NCBI RefSeq assembly: GCF_024223415.1 | Contig: NZ_CP100500.1 | Reading direction: 5' to 3' (one strand) | Length of the DNA: 64,000 nt | Source: Escherichia coli | GTDB lineage: Bacteria; Pseudomonadota; Gammaproteobacteria; Enterobacterales; Enterobacteriaceae | Part shown: positions 44,359-59,586 of the stretch, in pieces | Numbering within the stretch: position 1 is the first letter of the stretch | How the letters are laid out: every line of letters begins with the position of its first letter | The notes under the pieces: generated by a model | What the model saw: the letters and a program-made list of their open reading frames with translations, nothing else | What the model was told of the DNA's origin: nothing | The model's database searches: none | Program-made: the position numbers and the translations under genes

Positions 44359-44532
44359 ATTTGCGACCATTCCTGGAAAAATGGATCCATACTTAGGAAC
44401 AATGCTACTGCAATCCACAACGAAGCGGCGTAACATCACAAGTAATTCAGTAATCAATTCAGGGTAATTGATGCTGGCGAAAAAAATCGAACAAGCTATA
44501 ATTCAGCAACCATTTTACAGGTGGATGAAATA

Positions 44533-45426
44533 ATGACGAATTTAAAAGCAGTTATTCCTGTAGCGGGTCTTGGGATGCATATGTTGCCTGCCACTAAGGC
44601 GATTCCCAAAGAGATGCTACCGATCGTCGACAAGCCTATGATTCAGTACATTGTTGACGAGATTGTGGCTGCAGGGATCAAAGAAATCCTCCTGGTAACT
44701 CATGCGTCCAAGAACGCGGTCGAAAACCACTTCGACACCTCTTATGAATTAGAATCTCTCCTTGAACAGCGCGTAAAGCGTCAATTGCTTGCGGAAGTGC
44801 AGTCCATCTGTCCACCGGGCGTGACCATTATGAACGTGCGTCAGGGCGAACCTTTAGGTTTGGGTCACTCCATTTTATGTGCACGACCCGCCATTGGTGA
44901 CAATCCATTTGTCGTGGTGCTGCCGGACGTTGTGATCGACGACGCCAGCGCCGACCCGCTGCGCTACAACCTTGCTGCCATGATTGCACGATTCAACGAA
45001 ACGGGTCGTAGCCAGGTGCTGGCAAAACGTATGCCGGGTGACCTCTCTGAATACTCGGTCATCCAGACCAAAGAACCACTGGACCGTGAAGGTAAAGTCA
45101 GCCGCATTGTTGAATTTATCGAAAAACCGGATCAGCCGCAGATGTTGGACTCAGACATCATGGCCGTTGGTCGTTATGTGCTTTCTGCCGATATTTGGCC
45201 GGAACTTGAACGCACGCAGCCAGGTGCATGGGGGCGTATTCAGCTGACTGATGCCATCGCTGAACTGGCGAAAACACAGTCCGTTGATGCCATGCTGATG
45301 ACAGGTGACAGCTACGACTGCGGTAAAAAAATGGGTTATATGCAGGCATTTGTGAAGTATGGACTACGCAACCTCAAAGAAGGGGCGAAGTTCCGTAAAG
45401 GGATTGAGAAGCTGTTAAGCGAATAA
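44533..45426 (+). CDS. galF: UTP-glucose-1-phosphate uridylyltransferase homolog GalF
   Basis: ORF track starts at GTG 44521; ATG at 44533 gives [30 protein letters not shown] (297 aa). Confidence 0.95.
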
Positions 45427-45683
45427 TGAAAATCTGACTGGATGTAACGGTTGATAAGAAAATTATAACGGTGGTGAAAATTCGCAGGAAAAGTAACTTG
45501 TTGCGAATATTCCTGCCGTTATTTGATATAAATAACCAGCATAACAACGAGTTAATATTAGGATTTTAGTCAAAGTTTCCTAGGATTTTTCTTGTTTCCA
45601 GAGCGGATTCGTAAGACAATTAGCGCCTTAGTTTTACGGGTTAGCGTGAGTGAGCCATGCTCGTTACATCGCAGGTGTGTATT

Positions 45684-45722
45684 CAGTGTTCTGGTAGCTG
45701 TAAAGCCAGGGGCGGTAGCGTA
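45684..45722 (+). promoter_or_regulatory. JUMPstart with ops element in the O-antigen cluster leader
   Basis: cagtgttctggtagctgtaaagccaggggcggtagcgta; ops core GGCGGTAGCGT. Confidence 0.8.
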
Positions 45723-46450
45723 CATATGAGGAAACATTTCAGCTGAAATAATTGAATATTCCAAAGCATGAGAGTTACTTAATTTGTAAAAGTGCTACAG
45801 TACAATAGAGAGGATCTCTGTCTTCATATTGTTTGCGATCATCTCAGATGAAGTTATTGATTTCATCTTTTAATAGAAGAACTGAATAGAATATGTATGG
45901 CATTATCATTTTGAACAATAATAATAGAATAAAAGGAAGACATCGAAATGGTGGTCAAACATTACATCAGTTCTATTGATTTGACAGCAGAGAAGTCTGC
46001 CACAGCGAACCAAAATTACTGACTCGTAGAGAAGAAGTTGCACTGGCTGCTGAATGGTAATGGATGAAGACGACAGAGAAATAAGAAAAGAAAACTCAGC
46101 AGAATTACCTTCAGGGATATAGCGCATCACTATTTATGTATTGACTAAAGATAAAGCATTTAAGAAAGGTTAAGGTGTAAGGTGTGAAAAGCAGCCATGG
46201 GTAAGGTTCGTTTCGCACAGGCGTTACTTACAGTAGATGGTCGGCACATCGTAAGACTTGGTCTGATTGCCAGATCATATGTGAGACATCAGAAAAAATT
46301 TAAGCAAATATATAAACAGTAGGTGATGTTGTTAAAGTATAAAACAGATATGGTAGTCAAATAAAGCAAAGTATCGTTGGAAAAATATCTGTAAAATCCC
46401 TGGTGCGTTCACGTGAGTTAGAGTAAAAGTAATGAGGAGGTTCTATTTTT

Positions 46451-47551
46451 ATGAGTTTTGAAAATTGGTATATAAAAGATATTGAACCATATAAACTGGC
46501 TAGTCATAAAGTATGGGACGATGTTTGCAACCGAGATATATTAAAATTAGATTGGAATGAAGCAACTATTCCTGCTAGTCCGTATGTAAAGAAAAGAATT
46601 TTAGAAACTATTGATAAAATAGAGTTTAGATATTACCCAAACGTAAACAACATGGAGTTGTTAACAGCTATCGCGGGATATACTCAACTCAACATAGAAA
46701 ATATTCAATATTTTCCAAGTTCTGATGCTGCACATGAATATATAGCATCAGTATTCTTAACATCAGAAGATAGAGTGTTAATATTGTCCCCGACATATGA
46801 TAATTTCAGGCTAACCTGTCAAAGTAGAGGGGCGGAAATATCGTATGTTAATTGTTTTGATGGGGCGTTTCAATTCCAGAGTGAATTATTTATAAATGTT
46901 TTGAAAGAAACAAAGCCTAAAATTGCATATATGTGTAACCCTAACAATCCGACGGGTTCAATAATAAGGCGGGAATATATAAAGAAAATATTAACTCTTT
47001 TTCCTGATATCTTGTTTGTTTTAGATGAGGCTTATATTGAATTTTCATCTGGTTCATGTGGTGATTTTGTTAAGGAATATGATAATTTGATAGTATCAAG
47101 AACCTTCTCGAAGGCATTTGCGCTGGCCAATTTTAGGATTGGTTATATATTGGCTTCACCTAAACTTATAGTTTCAATTAATAAAATAAGAAATTCTAAG
47201 AATGTAACGACATTATCACAAGAGGCTGCAGTTGCTGCATTGCATGATTCTCAATATATGCAAGCTTATGTTAATGAGGTGATTGTAGCGCGACAATACT
47301 TTATTGAAGAGATAAATAGAAGGTTTGGAGATAAGCTGATAGCATATGAAAGTCATGGTAATTTTGTTCTTGTAAAATGCTCCTCGGAAATACTAAAAAA
47401 AACATTAATAAAAGGCCTGGAGGAACAAGATATTTTCATAAGAGATTTGTCACACAAGGAGCTCAATGGTTTACATATAAGGATTACTATTGGAACACGG
47501 ACTCAAATGAGGCAGGTGCTTAATGTTATTGAAAATATTATTGGTCAATAA
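46451..47551 (+). CDS. PLP-dependent class I/II aminotransferase-fold enzyme, HisC/CobD-like
   Basis: 366 aa; motifs CNPNNPTG, DEAYIEF and SRTFSKAFALANFRIGY (candidate PLP-lysine); low-GC codon usage. Confidence 0.8.
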   Translation: MSFENWYIKDIEPYKLASHKVWDDVCNRDILKLDWNEATIPASPYVKKRILETIDKIEFRYYPNVNNMELLTAIAGYTQLNIENIQYFPSSDAAHEYIASVFLTSEDRVLILSPTYDNFRLTCQSRGAEISYVNCFDGAFQFQSELFINVLKETKPKIAYMCNPNNPTGSIIRREYIKKILTLFPDILFVLDEAYIEFSSGSCGDFVKEYDNLIVSRTFSKAFALANFRIGYILASPKLIVSINKIRNSKNVTTLSQEAAVAALHDSQYMQAYVNEVIVARQYFIEEINRRFGDKLIAYESHGNFVLVKCSSEILKKTLIKGLEEQDIFIRDLSHKELNGLHIRITIGTRTQMRQVLNVIENIIGQ

Positions 47552-47587
47552 TATGTTTGCAGGCGCTCTTTATTATGTTGGTCAGCG

Positions 47588-48277
47588 ATGAAATATAAAT
47601 ACGCTTTTTTTGATTTTTGTGAAACGTTGGTGGATTTACAAACTGCTGATGATTACATTTCTGATGTGATTATTAAGAAGGAAGGCCGATGGAGTTATAA
47701 GCTTGCGATTATTGGCTTCTTAAGGAATAGATGGGTTAATAAATTATTTAATAAATTGTTTAACAATTATGATAACCCTAAGTCTTTGATTTTGAAGCTG
47801 GTTAAAGGGTTTGACTATGGGGTCTTTTCTGTTGCTGCAGAAGAATATTGTAAAAAACTAATGGAGTATTACTTAATTGATGATGTTATTTCGGAGATGC
47901 TAGAATTAAAAAAAAAGAATTATCAAATAATCATTGTCTCTGGGGGATATGATATATATATAAAGCATTTTTTTTCCTCAGTTGTAGATAAGGTTATAGC
48001 TACCGAGATTGATTTTTCTGATTCTAAGTGTCTGGGGAAAATATCAGGTATTGATTGTTTAGGTGTGAACAAGTTAAACAAAATAAAGAAATATATTGAT
48101 GTCAACACAATAGATTATGAAAATTCCTACGTCTTTTCTGACAGTAAAACAGATTTGCCTCTTTTTTCGTTAGCAAAGAATAAAATTGTCATATCTAAGA
48201 AAAAAAACAAATCGTGGGTTAATGAGCAAAATGAAGAATTTATTGAAAAAGTATGGTGTCCTAAAAAAATATGCTAA
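47588..48277 (+). CDS. HAD-superfamily hydrolase, probable phosphatase
   Basis: 229 aa; HAD motif I-like AFFDFCETL (second Asp replaced by Cys), motif II IVSGG, motif IV-like FSDSKTDLPLF. Confidence 0.7.
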   Translation: MKYKYAFFDFCETLVDLQTADDYISDVIIKKEGRWSYKLAIIGFLRNRWVNKLFNKLFNNYDNPKSLILKLVKGFDYGVFSVAAEEYCKKLMEYYLIDDVISEMLELKKKNYQIIIVSGGYDIYIKHFFSSVVDKVIATEIDFSDSKCLGKISGIDCLGVNKLNKIKKYIDVNTIDYENSYVFSDSKTDLPLFSLAKNKIVISKKKNKSWVNEQNEEFIEKVWCPKKIC

Positions 48278-49145
48278 GAAGTATTATTACTATACTTCTT
48301 CTTTTTTAATGTCAGATGAATTATATATAAAAAGGAAGTTTAAGAAAATTTTCGGATATGCTTTGGATATCAATAATCCAAAAACAATGAATGAAAAGAT
48401 GCAATGGATGAAGTTACATATGCATCCTCAGGAATATAATATTTTTGCAGATAAACTTCTTGTTAGAAAATACGTGGAAGAAAAGATTGGTAAAAATATA
48501 CTAATACCTATTTTTGCAGTATACGAAAGTGAAGCCGAATTAAATATAGATTCTTTGCCTGACGAACCATTTATCATTAAGACGAATCATGATAGTTCTG
48601 GTGGAATAATCGTGAGAAACAAATCAGAACTCAATATAAAGGATGCAAAAAGTTTTTGTCGATTTAATTTGAATAACAATCATTATTATATATCAAGAGA
48701 GAAACATTATAAACATTTAGACAGAAAAATTATTATAGAGAAGCTCCTTCTTACAAAATCCGGAAAAATCCCAAATGATTATAAAATAAATTGTATAAAT
48801 GGGCGTGCTGAATTTATATATTGCTCTATTGATAGAGAGGGGAAAAATTACCGAAAGATTTATGACAGGTCTTGGTGTGAAATGGATTTTAAATGGGGAA
48901 ATAAAGATGAGTTTGAGCATAAATTTACTGGGCCCAATATTGAAAAGCCTGATAATTTAGATAAAATGATTGAGTATGCGGAGATATTATCAATGGGGTT
49001 TCCTTATCTAAGAATAGATTTATACAATGTTGATGGGGAAATATATTTAGGAGAAATAACTATTTATCATGGGGGAGGGTTTGATGTTATTGAGCCAAAA
49101 GAATATGACTTATTTTTTGGTAATAAGATTCATTTAGAAAAATGA
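48222..49145 (+). CDS. TupA-like ATP-grasp amidoligase (start uncertain; ORF track begins at TTG 48186)
   Basis: N-terminal NPKTMNEKMQWMKL matches the conserved P-x-TFNEKIQWLK region of TupA-like ATP-grasp proteins; overlaps the upstream HAD ORF by 56-92 nt in another frame. Confidence 0.7.
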   Translation: MSKMKNLLKKYGVLKKYAKKYYYYTSSFLMSDELYIKRKFKKIFGYALDINNPKTMNEKMQWMKLHMHPQEYNIFADKLLVRKYVEEKIGKNILIPIFAVYESEAELNIDSLPDEPFIIKTNHDSSGGIIVRNKSELNIKDAKSFCRFNLNNNHYYISREKHYKHLDRKIIIEKLLLTKSGKIPNDYKINCINGRAEFIYCSIDREGKNYRKIYDRSWCEMDFKWGNKDEFEHKFTGPNIEKPDNLDKMIEYAEILSMGFPYLRIDLYNVDGEIYLGEITIYHGGGFDVIEPKEYDLFFGNKIHLEK

Positions 49146-50362
49146 AAAATATTATAAAGAATGGGCTGTCTCTTTCTTTTATAAAGGCAGTGACTTTGCT
49201 ATTTCCTATCGCCATTGTACCTATCCTGATATCAAAGATAGGAATGGATAAATATGGGGAAGTTGTATTTATCACTGCAATATATTCATATTTTATTAAT
49301 GTGGTTAGCTTTGGATTTGAAGAATCAGCCACTCAAGTCTTGGCAAAGAATCACTTCTCAGGTTTGTCGAAAAATGAATATATTTTGTCTGTTATCGTGC
49401 TCAAGGGCATAATTGCTGTTTCTATAATTTTTGTCATTTGTGGTTTGTATTTTTTGGGGATGGGAGGAGATTTTTTCTCATTGCTATTTTGTATTACCAT
49501 CGTCGCTGAGGTTTTTAATCCCTTATGGTTTTATCAGGGGGTCGAAAGAATTCATATTATCTCAGTGAGCTCTATAGTATCAAAATCATTATATACAATA
49601 TTAATATGTCTGTTTGTGAGATGTAATAATGATTATTACCTTGTTCCTGTATTTTTAGGCGGTGCGAATATTCTTTCTTATGTCTATCCGTTTGTTGCTA
49701 TGTGTAATGAGTGTAAATTTCGGCGCAATGACTTGAACTATAATAATTTGAAAAAAGTATTATTAGACTCAGTTAGTATATTCCTTACTAATTTTATCCC
49801 AACATTGAAAGATAAGATAGGTGCTATATTGATAGGTTTATCTTTCTCCATGAATATCGTAGCGATTTATGATATAATTATAAAAATACTTAATTTATTG
49901 TTTATTCCAGTAAATGTAATAAATGCATCGTTCTATCCAACACTTTCCAGGAAGAGAGAAAAGAAAATATTAATGCAATTAATGTATATAAATTTGGGTT
50001 ATGCTATTTTTGCATTTGTTATCGTATGTAATTTTTTTGATTATTTTTCCAATATCTACTTCCAATCCTATTCAGCGTATTCCGATGCTGTAAAAATAAT
50101 ATCTGTGTCTGTTGTTTTTTACTCAGTGAGTTTAATGATTGGAAAAAATATCCTATTGGTCACTGGTTTTTATCATCATGTGCTGCTCAGTATTATATTA
50201 TCGACAGGATTTTATTTGATGTTTGTCTGCTTTATGTATTCTCTTAGTTCATTGAGTATATATTCATTATGCTTTTTAACAACAGCATCATTCTTATTTG
50301 AAATGCTGGTTAGGTTAATTATGTTAAAGAAGACTAAGGCCTTGTTTTTTTTTAAATATTAA
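49142..50362 (+). CDS. wzx: O-antigen flippase Wzx
   Basis: 406 aa polytopic membrane protein, MOP-family-like; ATGA overlap with the upstream gene. Confidence 0.8.
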   Translation: MKNIIKNGLSLSFIKAVTLLFPIAIVPILISKIGMDKYGEVVFITAIYSYFINVVSFGFEESATQVLAKNHFSGLSKNEYILSVIVLKGIIAVSIIFVICGLYFLGMGGDFFSLLFCITIVAEVFNPLWFYQGVERIHIISVSSIVSKSLYTILICLFVRCNNDYYLVPVFLGGANILSYVYPFVAMCNECKFRRNDLNYNNLKKVLLDSVSIFLTNFIPTLKDKIGAILIGLSFSMNIVAIYDIIIKILNLLFIPVNVINASFYPTLSRKREKKILMQLMYINLGYAIFAFVIVCNFFDYFSNIYFQSYSAYSDAVKIISVSVVFYSVSLMIGKNILLVTGFYHHVLLSIILSTGFYLMFVCFMYSLSSLSIYSLCFLTTASFLFEMLVRLIMLKKTKALFFFKY

Positions 50363-50376
50363 TTAGGTATGGAAGT

Positions 50377-51246
50377 ATGAAAACAGTGTCAGTAATCATT
50401 CCAACATATAGGGATTGGGAAAGATTATCTAAATGTTTAAATGCAATAAAAAAACAAAGATATCCCGCAGAGTTTATTCAGGTAATAGTCATTAATAATG
50501 ATCCATTTGATGATAATCCATTTATAAATAGTGATGAATATAAAAATGTAAAGTTTTTAGTAGAGGGAAAGGTGGGTTCTTATGCAGCAAGAAATAAAGG
50601 CCTAAATTATGCAAAAGGGGAGATTATAGCATTCACTGATTCAGATTGTGTCCCAGATGAGTTTTGGATTTCAAATGCTGTTCGACATTTTGAAGAAAAT
50701 AGTAAATGCACAAGAATTGGTGGGAAAATTGAATTATTTTTCAAAGGTAATGTAAGTAAAACCCTAGCTGAATTTTATGAACAAAGTTATGCTTTCCGGC
50801 AGAAAGAGTTTGTTCAACGACAGGGAATGGCTGCAACAGCTAATATGTTCTCATATAAGAAGGTTTTTGATGATATATCATATTTCAATGATTCATTGAT
50901 GTCGGGAGGAGATGCCGAATGGGGAGTTAGGGCAAATAATAAAGGATATAGAATAGACTATTGTGATTCTGTCACTGTTTATCATCCGGCAAGAGAATCG
51001 ATGAAACAAATTTTTATAAAAAATCGAAGGGAAGCCAGTGGTAAAATAAAAAATAAACGAAAAGTGTTAATCAATTTTGTAATGTCATTGCTCCCACCAT
51101 TAAAATCGTTGATGTATATTAGGTATCATGGGAATAGTATATATAAAGTATTAATTGCATTTTTTATTAGATATTTAATGAGGATTGATACGGCTATAGA
51201 ACAAATCCGGGTTGTGTTTTTTAATAAGAAAGCCGAGCGATTATGA
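50377..51246 (+). CDS. Glycosyltransferase family 2
   Basis: 289 aa; VSVIIPTYRDWERLSKCLNAI and FTDSDC motifs. Confidence 0.8.
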   Translation: MKTVSVIIPTYRDWERLSKCLNAIKKQRYPAEFIQVIVINNDPFDDNPFINSDEYKNVKFLVEGKVGSYAARNKGLNYAKGEIIAFTDSDCVPDEFWISNAVRHFEENSKCTRIGGKIELFFKGNVSKTLAEFYEQSYAFRQKEFVQRQGMAATANMFSYKKVFDDISYFNDSLMSGGDAEWGVRANNKGYRIDYCDSVTVYHPARESMKQIFIKNRREASGKIKNKRKVLINFVMSLLPPLKSLMYIRYHGNSIYKVLIAFFIRYLMRIDTAIEQIRVVFFNKKAERL

Positions 51247-52487
51247 AAATGTTTTTTTTTGTTCTTTGCGTGTTCTTTTTAATAAATGGCTTTTATATAT
51301 ATCCGCCATTTAATAGTGCAATTTTAGCACCGATGTTAGCTTTATTGGGAGCACTAACATTAAGGAAGAAAATAACGATAAAGCCCTTTTCTGACTTGTT
51401 AGATCCTTCATTTTTATTTTGGTTTCTTTTTGTAAGTTGTTATTGTCTATCAATTGCAGTTTTCTCAAAAACATATGACTTATCATATGTAAAGAACTTT
51501 ATATCACAACTTGTTCAATTTGCTATTATTTTATTTAGTTTTTTTATGTTATCATCAATAGATGGAGCATTTTCTCTTAAGATAGAAAAAATTATCGTAT
51601 ATAGCTTCGTTTTACAATCTGTTATTCAGATAGCAGCATTTCTATATCCTGGAATAGCCGATATTATTCATTTATTTTATGATAAAGATAAAGTAGAGCG
51701 ATTATACATCAATTACGCAGGAGTAAGAGGACTGGCGTTGACTGGTTCCCCAGGGTGGGGAATATCTGTTGGATATGCTATATCATTTTTACTTTTTGTT
51801 AAAGCATTTGTTATTAATCAGAAATTGAAGTTTTCTAGTATTATAGTTGCAATACTACTTTTAATCGGTGCAATGTTTACTGGTCGCAGTGCTTTTATTG
51901 GTGTTATTTTCGGTGGGGGGTATTATCTTGTATCAGGAGAGGATATTACAAAAAAAATCAAAACTATAATTCTATTTTTAATTCTTCCTGCATTAATATG
52001 CATGTTAACATATATAATGTTGCCATCCCTATCCTCACTATTCGGAGATAAGGTTTTCCCATTTGTCTTTGAGTTCTATTATAAATACAAAGACACAGGT
52101 GAGTTATCTACTAAATCTACAGATATTTTGTTGAATATGTGGGATCTTAACGTTGATGTTACTGACATTGTGTTCGGTACAGGTAATTTCACAAATGACA
52201 AAACTGGAGAGTATTATTTCGGTAGTGATGTGGGATATCTCCGGAATTTATTGTATGGTGGTTTTTTTTGGATGTTCACTCTTTTTATTTATCAGGTTTC
52301 ATTATTTGGACAACTGCGTTGGTGGAAAAAAAGAAAGGATATTAAATTATTTGTATTCATTTTTATAGCCATGTTAATGTTGCTTGAGATGAAAGCAATG
52401 GCCATAGGATATAATAAATATGTGTTTACAGTTTCTATTTTATTAGGATTGTCATTTAAAGAGAGATACAGAAATGCTTACCAATAA
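51243..52487 (+). CDS. wzy: O-antigen polymerase Wzy
   Basis: 414 aa, about 10-12 predicted TM segments with a large loop; no similarity to Wzx; position. Confidence 0.7.
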   Translation: MKMFFFVLCVFFLINGFYIYPPFNSAILAPMLALLGALTLRKKITIKPFSDLLDPSFLFWFLFVSCYCLSIAVFSKTYDLSYVKNFISQLVQFAIILFSFFMLSSIDGAFSLKIEKIIVYSFVLQSVIQIAAFLYPGIADIIHLFYDKDKVERLYINYAGVRGLALTGSPGWGISVGYAISFLLFVKAFVINQKLKFSSIIVAILLLIGAMFTGRSAFIGVIFGGGYYLVSGEDITKKIKTIILFLILPALICMLTYIMLPSLSSLFGDKVFPFVFEFYYKYKDTGELSTKSTDILLNMWDLNVDVTDIVFGTGNFTNDKTGEYYFGSDVGYLRNLLYGGFFWMFTLFIYQVSLFGQLRWWKKRKDIKLFVFIFIAMLMLLEMKAMAIGYNKYVFTVSILLGLSFKERYRNAYQ

Positions 52488-53385
52488 AGTCTCTGTTGTT
52501 ATTCCGACACATAGTCGGCCTAATCTTTTGCGAAAAGCTATAGAAAGTGTTTTGAATCAGACATATAAGCCATGTGAAATTATTGTTGTTGATGATACAG
52601 AATCTGAAGAAACCGCTCGATGTTTATCTGTCATAAATAGCGATATACCTATTAGGCTAAAGTATAACACTTCTTCTGGTGCCGGCTCGTCTAGGAATTT
52701 AGGTGCAAAGATTGCTAATGGTGATTTTGTGGCTTTCTTGGATGACGATGATCTCTGGCTTCCAACTAAATTAGAAACGCAGATGTATGAATTGCGGCAT
52801 ACACAATATGATGCAATTTTTTGTCAGATGATAATAAATTATGAAGGGGTAAACATACAATATTCTACTCGAGCCAAAAATGTAGCTGAACCATTAAAAG
52901 AAATATGTATTGAAAACTTTATTGGTGCCACAATATCCTGTGTTATACGCCGTTCAATTTTTATGAAATTAGGAGGGTTTGATGAAAGATTCAAGGCTAG
53001 AGAGGAATATGATTTATGGATTCGAGTTATTCAATCTAATGCTAAAATTAAAATAATAGAAAAACCATTAACTATTTCAAATCGTTCTTTTGTACGGAAT
53101 CGTATTTCTTCTAACATAAATAATTATGAGCACGGAATATCACTTATTAACGAAAAATATGCTCGATTGATTACTGAAATATTAACTCCCAATGAGAGAA
53201 GAATAAGATTATCGAAACAATATGAATTTCTAGCTGCTCAGGCAATATCTTTAGGCCTTAAAATGACAAGCTCAAAGTATTATTTTAAGTCTTTTTTAAC
53301 AATTCCTTCTCTTAAATCGTTATTTCTTTCATTGTTGAGTATTATTTCTCCGCTAATGATAATAAAAATTAGAAGCAAACTTTAA
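52474..53385 (+). CDS. Glycosyltransferase family 2
   Basis: 303 aa; VSVVIPTHSRPNLLRKAIESVLNQTY and FLDDDD motifs. Confidence 0.8.
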   Translation: MLTNKVSVVIPTHSRPNLLRKAIESVLNQTYKPCEIIVVDDTESEETARCLSVINSDIPIRLKYNTSSGAGSSRNLGAKIANGDFVAFLDDDDLWLPTKLETQMYELRHTQYDAIFCQMIINYEGVNIQYSTRAKNVAEPLKEICIENFIGATISCVIRRSIFMKLGGFDERFKAREEYDLWIRVIQSNAKIKIIEKPLTISNRSFVRNRISSNINNYEHGISLINEKYARLITEILTPNERRIRLSKQYEFLAAQAISLGLKMTSSKYYFKSFLTIPSLKSLFLSLLSIISPLMIIKIRSKL

Positions 53386-53427
53386 TTATATCATCATTAT
53401 TAGACAGTCAATAACTGTGGAGTTAAC

Positions 53428-54690
53428 ATGAGTTCTGGGTTTAATTCTATTGAAAAGAACTTTTCAAGATTTTTATCTTACTTTCCAGGGATAAAAAAAA
53501 TAATTAAAAAAGCTTACATAAGGATAAATTTTTATATCTACAAAAAAGAACATAAAGTAAAAAGTGATTACAGCATCCATACGATTGATATCGATAGTTG
53601 CGAAACTTTTTTTGGATACTATGATAAATGTCCCGATAATGGTAAAGGAGATGTTATCGTTTGTGCATCGACTATATCTACCCACAACATACCTGATCCA
53701 AACAATCCGATTAAATTATATGTGTACAATCTTTGTACTAAAGATAAGGTGTTCATTGCTAATATTTCTGCATATAATTGGCAACAAGGATGTCGTGCTC
53801 ATTGGCTAAACGATGATTTACTTATTTATAACTTTTACTCTCATGAAAAGCGTAATTATTCGTCGAAAATATACTCAATCATAGAGAAAAAACATATAGC
53901 AGAGTTCTCTTTTGCGGTACAAGACAGTTTTCTTGGTAATTATTTTTTATCTATAAACTATTCTCGCTTAATGGCGTTACGCCCAGATTATGGATATAGA
54001 AATAAAAGTTTTTCTTGGGAATTGTTTGATCTGGCTAATGATGGTATATGGAAAGTCGATATTAGCTCTCGTAAGGGAGAATTAATCGTTACATTTTGTG
54101 ATATTATTAATTTTGAGTTTGAAAATAATGATGAGTATAAACATAAAGTTAACCATGTAATGATTTCTCCCGATGGTGAAAAATTTATATTTATACATCG
54201 TTATTATTATAAAGGTAAACGGAATGATAGATTAATGTTGTCAACCAAAGACGGACATTTAATTTCAGTATTAGCTAATAATAAAATGGTTAGTCATTGT
54301 TGTTGGCTTTCCAATGATAAAATTATCGGTTATTTAAGATCTGATAGTGGTGATGATAGTTATTGGGTTATTGATATAAATAATCTGGAGTCATACCAAC
54401 TCTTAGATGGTGAATTACTAAAATATGGCGATGGTCATCCATCGAATTGTAAAAATCTATTAGTGACGGATACATATCCTAATAAGTCAAGATATCAGAA
54501 ATTATTATTAGTCGATATGGATAATGATAATTACCAGGAACTTGGTGAGTTTTTACATGATCTTAGTTTTTCTGATGAGACTAGATGTGACTTACATCCT
54601 CGCTTTTCTCATGATGGCAGCATGATTTTTTTTGATTCAGTTTTTTCTGGAAAACGCAAGTTATGCTATTTACAGTTAATTAATAAATAA
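53428..54690 (+). CDS. Hypothetical protein, possibly beta-propeller-like; function unknown
   Basis: 420 aa, no GT signature recognised; repeated SPDG/SHDG-type strands (MISPDGEKFIFIH, HPRFSHDGSMIFFDS). Confidence 0.55.
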   Translation: MSSGFNSIEKNFSRFLSYFPGIKKIIKKAYIRINFYIYKKEHKVKSDYSIHTIDIDSCETFFGYYDKCPDNGKGDVIVCASTISTHNIPDPNNPIKLYVYNLCTKDKVFIANISAYNWQQGCRAHWLNDDLLIYNFYSHEKRNYSSKIYSIIEKKHIAEFSFAVQDSFLGNYFLSINYSRLMALRPDYGYRNKSFSWELFDLANDGIWKVDISSRKGELIVTFCDIINFEFENNDEYKHKVNHVMISPDGEKFIFIHRYYYKGKRNDRLMLSTKDGHLISVLANNKMVSHCCWLSNDKIIGYLRSDSGDDSYWVIDINNLESYQLLDGELLKYGDGHPSNCKNLLVTDTYPNKSRYQKLLLVDMDNDNYQELGEFLHDLSFSDETRCDLHPRFSHDGSMIFFDSVFSGKRKLCYLQLINK

Positions 54691-54695
54691 AGTGA

Positions 54696-55511
54696 TTGTA
54701 TATGAAAGTCGCAGTCGCAATGTCTGTATATAAGAATGATAATCCTATATACTTAGAGAAAGCCATTAAAAGTATATTGAATCAAACATATAAAAATATC
54801 CATTTATATATAGAGGTCGATGGAGTCATATCTCCACAATTATATCAATGTTTATCCTCTTTTATCTCATGCTCAAATATTAGTATAAATTTTAATAGTG
54901 ATTGTAAAGGATTGGCATTTAGATTAAATAATATTATTGATAAGGTTATATTTGATGGAGGATATTCGTATATTGCAAGAATGGATGCTGATGATATATC
55001 TCGACTCGATAGGATTGAAAAACAAGTAATATTTATGCAGACCCATAAGGATATTTCTGTTGTTGGTTCTGATGTTCTAGAAATAGATGAGGATGATAAT
55101 TTTTTATTTTACAAAAAAATGCATTGTGATCATGAGATCATCGTTCGAGATATTATTAAGAAATGTCCAATAAATCATCCCTCAGCATTTTTTAAAATAT
55201 CTTCATTTTATATAGTTAGATATAATTCCACCTTGAAGAACACACAGGATTATTACTTGTGGATTGATTTTATTTATAATAATTTAAAGATCTCAAACAT
55301 CAATGAGCCTTTGTTAAAATTTAGAGTGAATAGAGATTTTTATTCACGGAGAGGGTTTGATAAAGCTATCAATGATGTAAAATCACGAATATATGCCTTG
55401 CGAAAGTTGAATTGCTATTCACTAAGGAATATATTTCATATATTAATGCTTTTTTTTCTTAGAGTATCTCCGACTGTAATAAAAAAAATTGCATACAATA
55501 GACTTAGATAA
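54696..55511 (+). CDS. Glycosyltransferase family 2-like
   Basis: 271 aa; VAMSVYKNDNPIYLEKAIKSILNQTY and ARMDADDIS motifs; start may be the ATG at 54702. Confidence 0.75.
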   Translation: MYMKVAVAMSVYKNDNPIYLEKAIKSILNQTYKNIHLYIEVDGVISPQLYQCLSSFISCSNISINFNSDCKGLAFRLNNIIDKVIFDGGYSYIARMDADDISRLDRIEKQVIFMQTHKDISVVGSDVLEIDEDDNFLFYKKMHCDHEIIVRDIIKKCPINHPSAFFKISSFYIVRYNSTLKNTQDYYLWIDFIYNNLKISNINEPLLKFRVNRDFYSRRGFDKAINDVKSRIYALRKLNCYSLRNIFHILMLFFLRVSPTVIKKIAYNRLR

Positions 55512-58581: not shown

Positions 58582-59586
58582 TCAAACTTTATAGAAGTTA
58601 CGATACCATTCTACAAAGTTCTTTACCCCCTCTTTAACTGACGTTTCAGGTTTGAATCCTATTACGTCATACAGTGCTTTGGTATCAGCACTGGTTTCCA
58701 GTACATCACCGGGTTGGAGAGGCATCATATTTTTGTTGGCTTCAATACCCAGAGCCTCTTCTAACGCATTGATATAGTCCATCAACTCTACAGGCGAACT
58801 ATTACCAATGTTATAGACACGATATGGTGCTGAACTTGTTGCAGGCGAGCCTGTTTCTACAGCCCACTGTGGATCTTTTTCTGGAATAACATCCTGTAAG
58901 CGAATAATAGCTTCGGCAATATCATCAATATAAGTAAAGTCACGCTTCATTTTGCCGAAGTTGTAAACATCAATGCTTTTACCTTCCAACATGGCTTTAG
59001 TAAATTTAAATAATGCCATATCCGGACGTCCCCATGGACCATAAACCGTAAAGAAACGCAGTCCTGTGGTCGGTAAGCCATACAAATGAGAATATGTATG
59101 GGCCATGAGTTCATTCGCTTTTTTAGTTGCTGCATAAAGTGAAACAGGATGATCTACAGAGTCATCTGTAGAGAAAGGCATCATGCGGTTCATACCATAA
59201 ACAGAACTGGAGGAAGCGTAAAGTAGATGCTGAACATTATTATGGCGGCATCCTTCCAGTATGTTCAGGAATCCAATCAGGTTTGCATCTGCATATGCAT
59301 TGGGATTTTCAAGGGAGTAACGTACACCGGCTTGCGCAGCGAGGTTTATTACGCGATCGAACCGCTCCTCTGCAAACAGTGCTGCCATTTTCTCACGATC
59401 GGCCAGGTCAATTTTATAAAAACTGAAATTGTCGTGCTTGAGTAAATCAAGTCGTGCTTGTTTGAGGTTGACATCGTAATAATCATTTAAGTTGTCAATG
59501 CCTACAACCTGATGACCAGCTGCAAGAAGCCGTTTACTTACATAGAAACCGATAAAGCCAGCAGCTCCCGTAACCAGAAATTTCAT
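58582..59586 (-). CDS. gla: UDP-glucuronate 4-epimerase (NAD-dependent SDR epimerase, Gla/CapI-like)
   Basis: 334 aa; [21 protein letters not shown] Rossmann motif and YxxxK (YAATKKANE); position between ugd and wzz. Confidence 0.8.

What the first reader, a model, noticed from the sequence alone, without database searches (positions are those of the whole stretch)
48186..48277. HAD phosphatase and ATP-grasp ORFs overlap by 56-92 nt in different frames
The HAD ORF ends at 48277, while the ATP-grasp ORF begins at TTG 48186 or ATG 48222/48231 in another frame. Short 1-4 nt overlaps are the norm elsewhere in this window (GTGA, ATGA); a 50-90 nt overlap is unusual. It could be a genuine out-of-frame overlap, a start further downstream than I can identify, a frameshift splitting an ancestral fusion, or a sequencing indel in the A-rich run at 48195-48210.
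Basis: seen in the sequence. Interest (0 to 1): 0.35.

Follow-up and report, generated by a model that had tools for sequence, protein, structure and literature searches.

The report
Conserved 47-base overlap of two genes
Two neighbouring enzyme genes in an E. coli O-antigen cluster really do share 47 bases in different reading frames; related bacteria keep this overlap, but it is an ordinary, already annotated example of a long gene overlap.

Summary
The HAD-IB phosphatase ORF ends at 48277. The TupA-like ATP-grasp ORF has in-frame starts at TTG 48186 and ATG 48222 and 48231. Ortholog N-termini (MKNLLKKYG…) place the start at ATG 48231, which is also RefSeq's choice. The true overlap is therefore 47 nt in the +1 frame (phase 1), not 56-92 nt.

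It is not a sequencing error. The exact 229-aa HAD protein occurs on 168 public contigs and the exact 304-aa ATP-grasp protein on 131.

It is not a mis-set start or stop. Seven orthologous loci (E. coli, Photobacterium, Shewanella, Vibrio, three metagenomic) keep a 23-47 nt overlap, all in the +1 frame. The shared core, 48231-48256, encodes the HAD's last beta-strand (IEKVW, a family-wide motif) and the first nine ATP-grasp residues. The last 12 nt of the E. coli overlap come from loss of the stop used in Photobacterium, a change that is silent in the ATP-grasp frame.

More distant relatives show 4-nt and 13-nt overlaps, and there are natural in-frame HAD–ATP-grasp fusions. No conserved slippery site or RNA structure supports programmed frameshifting.

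The two genes, with the upstream HisC-like PLP enzyme, resemble the Campylobacter Cj1437/Cj1438C/Cj1435 uronic-acid amidation module. Low interest.

The parts
45684..45722 (+). JUMPstart RNA / ops element, the leader of the O-antigen operon that contains both genes
   Evidence: Rfam RF01707 at 56.6 bits against a gathering score of 35. The ops octamer GGCGGTAG lies at 45711-45718.
46451..47551 (+). HisC-like PLP-dependent aminotransferase or decarboxylase, the first gene of the cluster
   Evidence: PF00155 at 186 bits. TIGR01141 hisC at 270.3 bits, just under its 276.55 cut-off. It is the only gene tested in the cluster with a strong Shine-Dalgarno sequence (-13 kcal/mol).
47588..48277 (+). 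HAD-IB family phosphatase gene (229 aa)
   Evidence: PF12710 at 70.9 bits and TIGR01488 at 64.7 bits against a 45-bit cut-off. AlphaFold model with mean pLDDT 94.4. Annotated as WP_021541067.1.
48231..49145 (+). TupA-like ATP-grasp amidoligase gene (304 aa), start at ATG 48231
   Evidence: PF14305 at 161.9 bits. This is the RefSeq start. Ortholog N-termini MKNLLKRYG and MKNLFKKYG align with it. In Photobacterium L003 no start codon lies further upstream in frame.
48231..48277 (+). The overlap: 47 nt, with ATP-grasp in the +1 frame (phase 1) relative to HAD
   Evidence: Sequence, RefSeq annotation and an identical 47-nt overlap in metagenomic ortholog L005.
48231..48256 (+). Conserved dual-coding core: HAD residues N215-W223 (NEEFIEKVW, including the last beta-strand 219-223) and ATP-grasp residues M1-G9 (MKNLLKKYG)
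   Evidence: The HAD family C-terminal motif E(I/V)IW. Strand E219-223 in the model. Third-codon-position identity of 0.60 against 0.46±0.08 for the rest of the gene.
48257..48277 (+). Non-conserved HAD tail (CPKKIC plus stop); a lineage-specific 3' extension
   Evidence: Orthologs stop 0-2 codons after the Trp, except L005. Photobacterium reads CCT TAA where E. coli reads CCT AAA. In the ATP-grasp frame this is CTT AAG to CTA AAA, a silent change. The model shows coil at 224-229.
48200..48207 (+). A8 run (Lys codons of HAD), upstream of the ATP-grasp start
   Evidence: Sequence. It is not conserved in orthologs, and in L004, L006 and L008 a +1-frame stop lies between this position and the ATG.
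48263..48269 (+). A7 run inside the overlap; loss of one A here would join HAD to ATP-grasp in frame
   Evidence: Sequence. It is read as A6 in the error-prone 181.1 assembly and is not conserved in orthologs.
49142..50362 (+). Wzx flippase gene, overlapping the ATP-grasp stop by 4 nt (ATGA)
   Evidence: ORF list and annotation.

Best explanation
This is a genuine, evolutionarily conserved, co-directional phase-1 overlap of two real genes in one O-antigen operon.

The ATP-grasp amidoligase starts at ATG 48231. That is inside the codons for the last beta-strand of the HAD-IB phosphatase, which stops at 48277, so the genes share 47 nt. The ancestral form of the overlap arose once in a gamma-proteobacterial clade of this gene cassette and has been kept since. 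It runs from the ATG to just past the conserved Trp codon and is about 23-35 nt long. The HAD frame is held open there by selection on the structured HAD C-terminus. The ATP-grasp frame is the tolerant partner: its first ten or so residues are a low-confidence helix start. In the E. coli/L005 lineage, a change that is synonymous in the ATP-grasp frame removed the HAD stop and lengthened the overlap by 12 nt.

The following parts are inferred, not shown. Internal genes of this operon lack good Shine-Dalgarno sequences, so the overlap most likely couples ATP-grasp translation to HAD translation. The coupling could work by ribosomes keeping the start region unfolded, or by re-initiation after termination 44 nt downstream. 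The two enzymes would then be made together. With the upstream HisC-like PLP enzyme they would form an amidation module: the PLP enzyme makes an amino-alcohol phosphate, the ATP-grasp enzyme ligates it to a uronic-acid carboxylate of the O-unit, and the HAD enzyme removes the phosphate.
For: Both ORFs are real genes (Pfam) and give confident AlphaFold models (pLDDT 94.4 and 92.7).

The start is supported. The 77%- and 68%-identical orthologs begin MKNLLKRYG and MKNLFKKYG, aligned to 48231. L003 has no ATG, GTG or TTG upstream in frame. RefSeq uses the same start.

The stop is supported. HAD homologs, including ones whose tail does not overlap the ATP-grasp gene, end with ...W......E(I/V)IW plus 0-15 residues. 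The phosphoserine phosphatase match leaves the same 24 C-terminal residues in query and structure.

The overlap is conserved: 47 (E. coli, L005), 35, 32, 29, 26 and 23 nt in seven loci, all with frame difference +1. These loci form one clade in an ATP-grasp neighbour-joining tree.

There is a dual-coding signature: third-position identity of 0.60 against 0.46±0.08, ranking 14th of 295 windows.

The sequence is reproducible: 168 and 131 contigs carry the exact proteins.

Operon context: a JUMPstart leader; no terminator-like sites and no excess of promoter-like sites; anti-SD pairing of -13 kcal/mol for the first gene but -1.5 to -3.7 kcal/mol for HAD, ATP-grasp, wzx, the glycosyltransferase and wzy.

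The two genes are tightly linked. Junctions range from a 4-nt overlap to in-frame fusions, each fusion found on several independent contigs.

Pathway analogy: in C. jejuni, Cj1437/Cj1436 make serinol-P or ethanolamine-P, the TupA-like Cj1438C amidates GlcA, and the HAD enzyme Cj1435 removes the phosphate (PMC11800397, PMC11800379).
Against: No translation data are available, so ATG 48222 (56-nt overlap, used by the 307-aa annotations on 57 contigs) cannot be excluded for E. coli itself.

Translational coupling is inferred only. The start at 48231 has weak SD pairing (-3.3 kcal/mol, poorly spaced). Re-initiation 44 nt upstream of a stop is at the far end of what has been reported (from my own recollection of the literature).

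A single 47-nt open run is not improbable by chance (P about 0.11).

Homology to the Campylobacter enzymes was not tested directly, and the O-antigen structure is unknown.

The neighbour-joining tree is rough and has no support values.
Confidence: 0.84

Rival explanations
1. The overlap is real but longer: the ATP-grasp gene starts at ATG 48222 (56 nt) or TTG 48186 (92 nt).
For: Both codons are in frame and open. A 307-aa version starting at 48222 is annotated on 57 contigs. SD-like pairing is equal for 48222 and 48231, at -3.3 kcal/mol.
Against: No ortholog has residues aligned upstream of MKN. In L003, L004, L006 and L008 the frame is closed 3-36 nt upstream of the ATG, and L003 has no start codon in that stretch. 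TTG 48186 pairs at only -0.9 kcal/mol. A published survey found no genuine co-directional overlaps above 60 bp; most such cases were 5' over-extensions of the downstream gene (PMC2478687).
Confidence: 0.08
2. There is no real overlap: the ATP-grasp protein starts downstream of the HAD stop, at ATG 48309.
For: 48309 is the first in-frame ATG after 48277. The Pfam domain begins only at about residue 55 of the 304-aa protein. Residues 1-10 have low pLDDT.
Against: Orthologs have I, V, A, L, L and V at this position, so there is no conserved start. The G9-D29 segment is exactly 21 residues in the six closest loci, with a conserved (L/S)KKY motif, so it is translated. Family members all carry a 40-55-residue N-terminal extension. 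SD pairing at 48309 is +2.8 kcal/mol. The model shows a continuous helix from residue 2 to 26, with pLDDT 80-89 for residues 11-30.
Confidence: 0.03
3. It is an artefact or a decaying gene: a sequencing indel in an A-run, or a recent frameshift that split a HAD–ATP-grasp fusion gene.
For: A8 and A7 runs flank or lie within the overlap. Deleting one A in the A7 run would give an in-frame fusion. Natural fusions of 501-527 aa exist (P0174, P0190, P0182). Strain 181.1 shows shorter runs.
Against: The exact proteins occur on 168 and 131 contigs. The separate stop and start are conserved in seven loci from at least four genera, in the same phase. The HAD C-terminal motif is also present in relatives whose tail does not overlap the next gene. 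The fusion proteins fall outside the overlap clade. In 181.1, three homopolymer runs near the junction each lack one base and genes across the whole cluster are annotated in fragments, which is typical assembly error.
Confidence: 0.02
4. It is programmed recoding: +1 ribosomal frameshifting, or transcriptional slippage on the A-runs, makes some HAD–ATP-grasp fusion protein alongside the two separate products.
For: The downstream frame is +1. The +1 frame is open from 48174 in E. coli, so it spans both A-runs. Loss of one A in the mRNA at either run would give a fusion in the same domain order as the natural fusions.
Against: No slippery motif is conserved. The A-runs are absent or differently placed in L005, L004 and L008, and +1-frame stops lie 3-12 nt upstream of the ATG in L004, L006 and L008. 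There is no significant RNA structure at the junction (z = -0.75). From my own recollection of the literature, runs of 7-8 A are below the length at which E. coli RNA polymerase slips efficiently.
Confidence: 0.03

Closest known systems
Long phase-1 co-directional gene overlaps in prokaryotic operons (Fonseca et al. 2013, PMC3887535; Pallejà et al. 2008, PMC2478687)
   Same: The two genes are on the same strand in one operon. The downstream gene is shifted by +1, which is the phase that predominates among long overlaps. The length is below the ~60-bp limit above which surveyed co-directional overlaps proved to be misannotations. Part of the length arose by 3' extension of the upstream gene after stop loss, a route those papers describe.
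   Different: At 47 nt it is near the top of the range for genuine overlaps, and it occurs in AT-rich DNA (29-34% GC) where off-frame stops are dense. Unlike many annotated long overlaps, both gene ends are verified here by orthologs, and the overlap is conserved across genera.
Campylobacter jejuni HS:2 capsule glucuronamide module: Cj1437/Cj1436 (PLP enzymes), Cj1438 C-terminal domain (TupA-like ATP-grasp amidoligase) and Cj1435 (HAD phosphatase)
   Same: The same three enzyme classes are encoded together in a surface-polysaccharide locus. ugd lies nearby, and so does an SDR epimerase whose second-best PDB matches I recall as a UDP-GlcA 4-epimerase. The order of reactions (ligate the phosphorylated amine, then dephosphorylate) explains why ATP-grasp and HAD are linked.
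   Different: In C. jejuni the ATP-grasp domain is fused to glycosyltransferase domains and Cj1435 is a separate gene. Here the ATP-grasp protein stands alone and its gene overlaps the HAD gene. Sequence homology to the Cj proteins, the amine used and the sugar modified were not tested.
Natural HAD–ATP-grasp fusion proteins (P0174 527 aa; P0190 501 aa; P0182 504 aa; marine metagenomes)
   Same: The domain order is the same (HAD then ATP-grasp). For P0174 the polysaccharide-locus context is also similar, with an adjacent aminotransferase. In my reading of the sequences, the HAD terminal 'IW' is retained in P0190 and P0182 and is followed directly by the ATP-grasp N-terminal region.
   Different: They are single ORFs with no internal stop or start, they are 6-32 residues shorter than the two E. 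coli proteins combined, and they fall in different branches of the ATP-grasp tree.

Membership tests
Genuine long co-directional gene overlap | Both ORFs are real protein-coding genes | tested here: met
   PF12710 at 70.9 bits and PF14305 at 161.9 bits. Hundreds of homologs for the ATP-grasp protein and 51 for the HAD protein. Confident AlphaFold models.
Genuine long co-directional gene overlap | The downstream gene's start inside the upstream gene is supported by ortholog N-termini | tested here: met
   MKNLLK(K/R)YG aligns in L005 and L003. There is no upstream start in L003. The G9-D29 length is invariant.
Genuine long co-directional gene overlap | The upstream gene's C-terminus within the overlap is supported by orthologs and by structure | tested here: met
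   The family-wide E(I/V)IW motif. Model strand 219-223. The length matches phosphoserine phosphatase 1f5s.
Genuine long co-directional gene overlap | The overlap is conserved in phase across orthologous loci | tested here: met
   Seven loci with 23-47 nt overlaps, all with frame difference +1.
Genuine long co-directional gene overlap | Both products are translated from the overlapping region | not testable with these tools
   Needs proteomics or ribosome profiling.
HAD-IB phosphatase subfamily | Profile scores above the curated cut-offs | tested here: met
   TIGR01488 at 64.7 bits against 45, and PF12710 at 70.9 against 27. TIGR01490 scores 89.3, below its 98.3 cut-off.
HAD-IB phosphatase subfamily | Canonical motif I, DxDx(T/V) | tested here: inconclusive
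   The protein has D9-F-C11-E-T13, with Cys in place of the second Asp. This is nearly invariant in the subfamily. The fusion protein P0174 has the canonical DFDGT.
TupA-like ATP-grasp amidoligase (PF14305) | Full-length profile match above the cut-off | tested here: met
   161.9 bits against 25, covering profile positions 1-240 of 241.
Cj1437/Cj1438C/Cj1435-type uronic-acid amidation module | Co-located genes for a HisC-like PLP enzyme, a HAD phosphatase and a TupA-like ATP-grasp enzyme in a polysaccharide locus | tested here: met
   Genes at 46451-49145. The same triad is found in Photobacterium, Vibrio, Parabacteroides and other loci.
Cj1437/Cj1438C/Cj1435-type uronic-acid amidation module | Direct sequence homology to the characterised C. 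jejuni proteins | not tested
The link rests on shared Pfam families and on the papers' description of Cj1438C as a TupA-like ATP-grasp fold.
Cj1437/Cj1438C/Cj1435-type uronic-acid amidation module | The product is an amino-alcohol amide of GlcA or GalA in the polysaccharide | not testable with these tools
   Needs the O-antigen structure or enzyme assays.
Programmed frameshift / transcriptional-slippage gene | A conserved slippery site and a downstream stimulatory structure | tested here: not met
   The A-runs are not conserved, and +1-frame stops lie close to the ATG in orthologs. The junction fold has z = -0.75.

The most novel reading that the evidence does not exclude
The HAD phosphatase and the ATP-grasp amidoligase may work as an obligate complex. 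In that reading, the range of junctions seen in this gene pair reflects selection for 1:1 co-production: 4-nt overlap, 13-47-nt overlap and full fusion. In E. coli the long overlap would then act as a coupling device. Occasional loss of one A on the A7/A8 runs might even yield a minor fusion protein equivalent to the natural fusions.
Probability: 0.07. Interest if true: 0.4.

Novelty: new member of a known kind. Interest (0 to 1): 0.18.

Why it matters
The value is mostly practical. It shows that this long overlap should not be 'corrected' by annotation pipelines, fixes the ATP-grasp start at 48231 and rules out an assembly error.

It also gives a clean, ortholog-verified example of a co-directional overlap close to the ~60-bp ceiling reported for genuine cases. 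The example shows how such overlaps lengthen: the stop is lost through a change that is silent in the other frame.

The junction series, from short overlap through long overlap to fusion, is Rosetta-stone-type evidence that the phosphatase and the amidoligase act together. That fits the ligate-then-dephosphorylate pathway worked out in Campylobacter and suggests this E. coli O-antigen carries an amidated uronic acid.

Tried and rejected
1. A PDB sequence search with the ATP-grasp protein found no match, so no solved homolog could be used to judge the N-terminus.
2. Literature searches to identify the O-serogroup or an E. coli serinol-amide O-antigen returned nothing useful (one search was a syntax error; one search gave only irrelevant hits).
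3. Strain 181.1 was considered as independent evidence for A-run length. I rejected it because three homopolymer runs near the junction each lack one base and genes across its whole O-antigen cluster are annotated in fragments.
4. Frameshift-stimulating RNA structure: the junction fold is no better than shuffled sequence.
5. An internal promoter or terminator between the genes: there are no terminator-like sites, and promoter-like sites are not above the shuffle expectation (27 against 21.9±4.6).
6. The 405- and 411-aa ATP-grasp homologs and many two-stretch hits were considered as possible fusions. Those I read (P0172, P0196, P0208, P0213) are tandem ATP-grasp duplications and P0258 is an ABC-ATPase fusion. 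The 405- and 411-aa proteins were not examined further. Only P0174, P0190 and P0182 are HAD fusions.
7. Two calls failed on a 1-nt coordinate offset between the window and NZ_CP021726.1 downstream of the cluster. This was fixed.
8. I did not run the costly genome contigs or metagenome contigs surveys, because nine unfused and three fused junctions were enough for the question.

Full report
**What is there**

The window is E. coli. Bases 46400-49200 are 100% identical to NZ_CP021726.1 (strain Combat11I9), and only 2 of 5426 complete E. coli genomes carry this segment. It lies in the O-antigen cluster between galF (44521-45426) and gnd. The cluster has 29-34% GC against about 49% in the flanks. 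A JUMPstart/ops leader sits at 45684-45722.

The gene order is as follows:
- HisC-like PLP enzyme, 46451-47551
- HAD-IB phosphatase, 47588-48277
- TupA-like ATP-grasp amidoligase, ending at 49145
- Wzx, a GT2 glycosyltransferase, Wzy, and further glycosyltransferases

**Checking the observation**

Two small corrections apply. The A8 run is at 48200-48207. Starting at 48231 gives a 47-nt overlap, not 56.

Elsewhere in the matching RefSeq region, same-strand overlaps are 1, 1, 19, 7, 14, 4, 4, 4, 4, 26, 4, 4, 4 and 1 nt. So 47 nt is the maximum, but it is not a different kind of thing.

From the stop density of the HAD frame within the ATP-grasp gene (0.135 per codon), an open run of 15 codons has P of about 0.11. 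The length by itself is therefore unremarkable.

**Where the ATP-grasp gene starts**

Homologs are 300-318 aa long. The nearest ones begin MKNLLKRYGLLKKY and MKNLFKKYGILKKY, aligned to M at 48231: a metagenomic ortholog at 77% identity and the Photobacterium damselae ortholog at 68%. In the Photobacterium locus the +1 frame upstream of that ATG holds no ATG, GTG or TTG before the preceding stop. RefSeq also uses 48231.

The next in-frame ATG after the HAD stop is 48309. Orthologs have I, V, A, L, L and V at that position. The segment from G9 to D29 is exactly 21 residues in the six closest orthologous loci, with a conserved (L/S)KKY, so it is coding sequence. The AlphaFold model (pLDDT 92.7) shows one N-terminal helix over residues 2-26. 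Confidence is low (48) for residues 1-10 and 80-89 for residues 11-30.

**Where the HAD gene ends**

Across 20 family members, the C-terminus is …VVVSK…W……E(I/V)IW followed by 0-15 variable residues. This includes Bacteroidota loci whose HAD tail lies almost entirely outside the next gene. In the model (pLDDT 94.4), residues 219-223 (IEKVW) form the final beta-strand and residues 224-229 are coil. The match to phosphoserine phosphatase 1f5s leaves 24 C-terminal residues in both proteins.

The conserved HAD end therefore reaches codon W223 (48254-48256), which is 26 nt past the ATP-grasp ATG.

**Not an error**

The exact 229-aa HAD protein is on 168 contigs and the exact 304-aa ATP-grasp protein is on 131. 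The one assembly with a shorter A-run, strain 181.1, lacks one base in each of three homopolymer runs within 110 nt, and genes across its whole cluster are annotated in fragments. It is an error-prone assembly, not a variant.

**Conservation**

The cassette aminotransferase–HAD–ATP-grasp–Wzx–GT2–Wzy–GT2 recurs in several places:
- Photobacterium damselae: 35-nt overlap
- Shewanella sp.: 32 nt
- Vibrio parahaemolyticus: 26 nt
- three metagenomic lineages: 47, 29 and 23 nt

In every one of these the frame difference is +1, and they form one clade in a rough ATP-grasp tree.

Within the first nine ATP-grasp codons, third-position identity is 0.60 against 0.46±0.08 for the rest of the gene, ranking 14th of 295 windows. 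This is expected when third positions of one frame are first positions of the other.

The extra 12 nt in E. coli and L005 come from loss of the stop used in Photobacterium. CCT TAA became CCT AAA. In the ATP-grasp frame this is CTT AAG to CTA AAA, which still reads Leu-Lys and is silent.

More distant pairs have short phase-2 junctions: 13 nt in Parabacteroides and the 4-nt ATGA in L013.

A search with the concatenated proteins found true in-frame HAD–ATP-grasp fusions. P0174 is on four contigs from independent samples, next to an aminotransferase. P0190 is on two contigs. P0182 is a third. They lie outside the overlap clade.

**Mechanism**

Shown: there are two real genes with a conserved overlap, in one operon, with no terminator-like sites and no excess of promoter-like sites between them.

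Inferred: only the first gene has a strong Shine-Dalgarno sequence (-13 kcal/mol). HAD, ATP-grasp, wzx, the glycosyltransferase and wzy all pair weakly, at -1.5 to -3.7 kcal/mol. ATP-grasp initiation therefore probably depends on ribosomes translating HAD, either through unfolding of the start region or through re-initiation after termination.

Recoding is unlikely. No slippery motif is conserved, +1-frame stops sit 3-12 nt upstream of the ATG in three orthologs, and the junction has no significant structure (z = -0.75).

**Function of the pair**

By analogy with C. jejuni, the PLP enzyme would make an amino-alcohol phosphate, the ATP-grasp enzyme would amidate a uronic acid of the O-unit, and the HAD enzyme would remove the phosphate. 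In C. jejuni, Cj1437/Cj1436 make serinol-P or ethanolamine-P, the TupA-like ATP-grasp domain of Cj1438 amidates GlcA, and Cj1435 is the HAD phosphatase (PMC11800397 and PMC11800379). ugd and a probable UDP-GlcA 4-epimerase lie just downstream. Direct homology to the Cj proteins and the chemistry itself were not tested.

**Comparison with what is known, and verdict**

Long co-directional overlaps are mostly phase 1 (PMC3887535). [quoted passage not shown] This 47-nt phase-1 overlap fits the known pattern at its upper end, and RefSeq already annotates it.

It is a verified, conserved example of a known phenomenon, with a modest extra point: the series from short overlap through long overlap to fusion argues for tight functional linkage of the two enzymes. 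Interest is low.

Noticed in passing
window 47612-47626 (HAD residues 9-13): HAD motif I reads D-F-C-E-T instead of the canonical DxDxT. The Cys at the D+2 (general acid/base) position is nearly invariant in this subfamily (D9, F10, C11, T13), whereas the fusion protein P0174 has the canonical DFDGT. This is unusual for a phosphatase and I have no explanation for it.
   Followed up: partly
L002 (NZ_CP059907.1, strain 181.1), whole O-antigen cluster: This RefSeq 'complete genome' has single-base losses in the homopolymer runs examined near the junction, and HAD, wzx, wzy and glycosyltransferase genes are annotated in fragments. It looks like uncorrected long-read error rather than biology.
   Followed up: partly
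window 46451-55500 versus L003, L004, L006, L007: The front of the E. coli O-antigen cluster (aminotransferase–HAD–ATP-grasp–Wzx–GT2–Wzy–GT2) is syntenic with polysaccharide loci of Photobacterium damselae, Shewanella and metagenomic contigs, at 54-77% protein identity for the ATP-grasp enzyme. GC content is 29-34%. This suggests lateral acquisition of the cassette. The O-serogroup was not identified.
   Followed up: partly
window 58582-59586 (- strand): An SDR epimerase gene lies between ugd and wzzB. Its best PDB match is 5u4q at 634 bits, deposited as 'dTDP-glucose 4,6-dehydratase'. The next matches are the 6zl6/6zla-series epimerase-domain proteins and MoeE5, which I recall to be UDP-glucuronate 4-epimerases. 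If so, the amidated sugar could be GalA rather than GlcA.
   Followed up: partly
window 45427-46450: There is an unusually long (~1 kb) non-coding gap between galF and the first O-antigen gene. JUMPstart lies at 45684-45722, about 730 nt upstream of the first start codon. The content of the rest of the gap was not examined.
   Followed up: no
window positions above 49200, versus NZ_CP021726.1: The coordinate mapping between the window and Combat11I9 shifts by 1 nt somewhere between 49200 and 58516. The ugd and epimerase ORF ends are off by one. The window is therefore not base-for-base identical to that record over its whole length.
   Followed up: no
(protein cluster look-up): The unrelated HAD and ATP-grasp proteins were reported as members of the same 90%-identity cluster (42 members, represented by a partial ATP-grasp protein). 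This may be an artefact of the clustering, or they may be linked through a mis-predicted fused sequence. It remains unexplained.
   Followed up: no
P0172, P0196, P0208, P0213: Many TupA-like ATP-grasp proteins of 440-600 aa are tandem duplications of the ATP-grasp domain. P0258 is an ABC-ATPase–ATP-grasp fusion. So the family shows a range of domain fusions beyond the HAD fusion.
   Followed up: no
matching region of NZ_CP021726.1: wcaD/wcaC and hisA/hisF: Other long same-strand overlaps are annotated in this window's region: wcaD/wcaC at 26 nt, hisA/hisF at 19 nt and wzy/GT2 at 14 nt.
   Followed up: no
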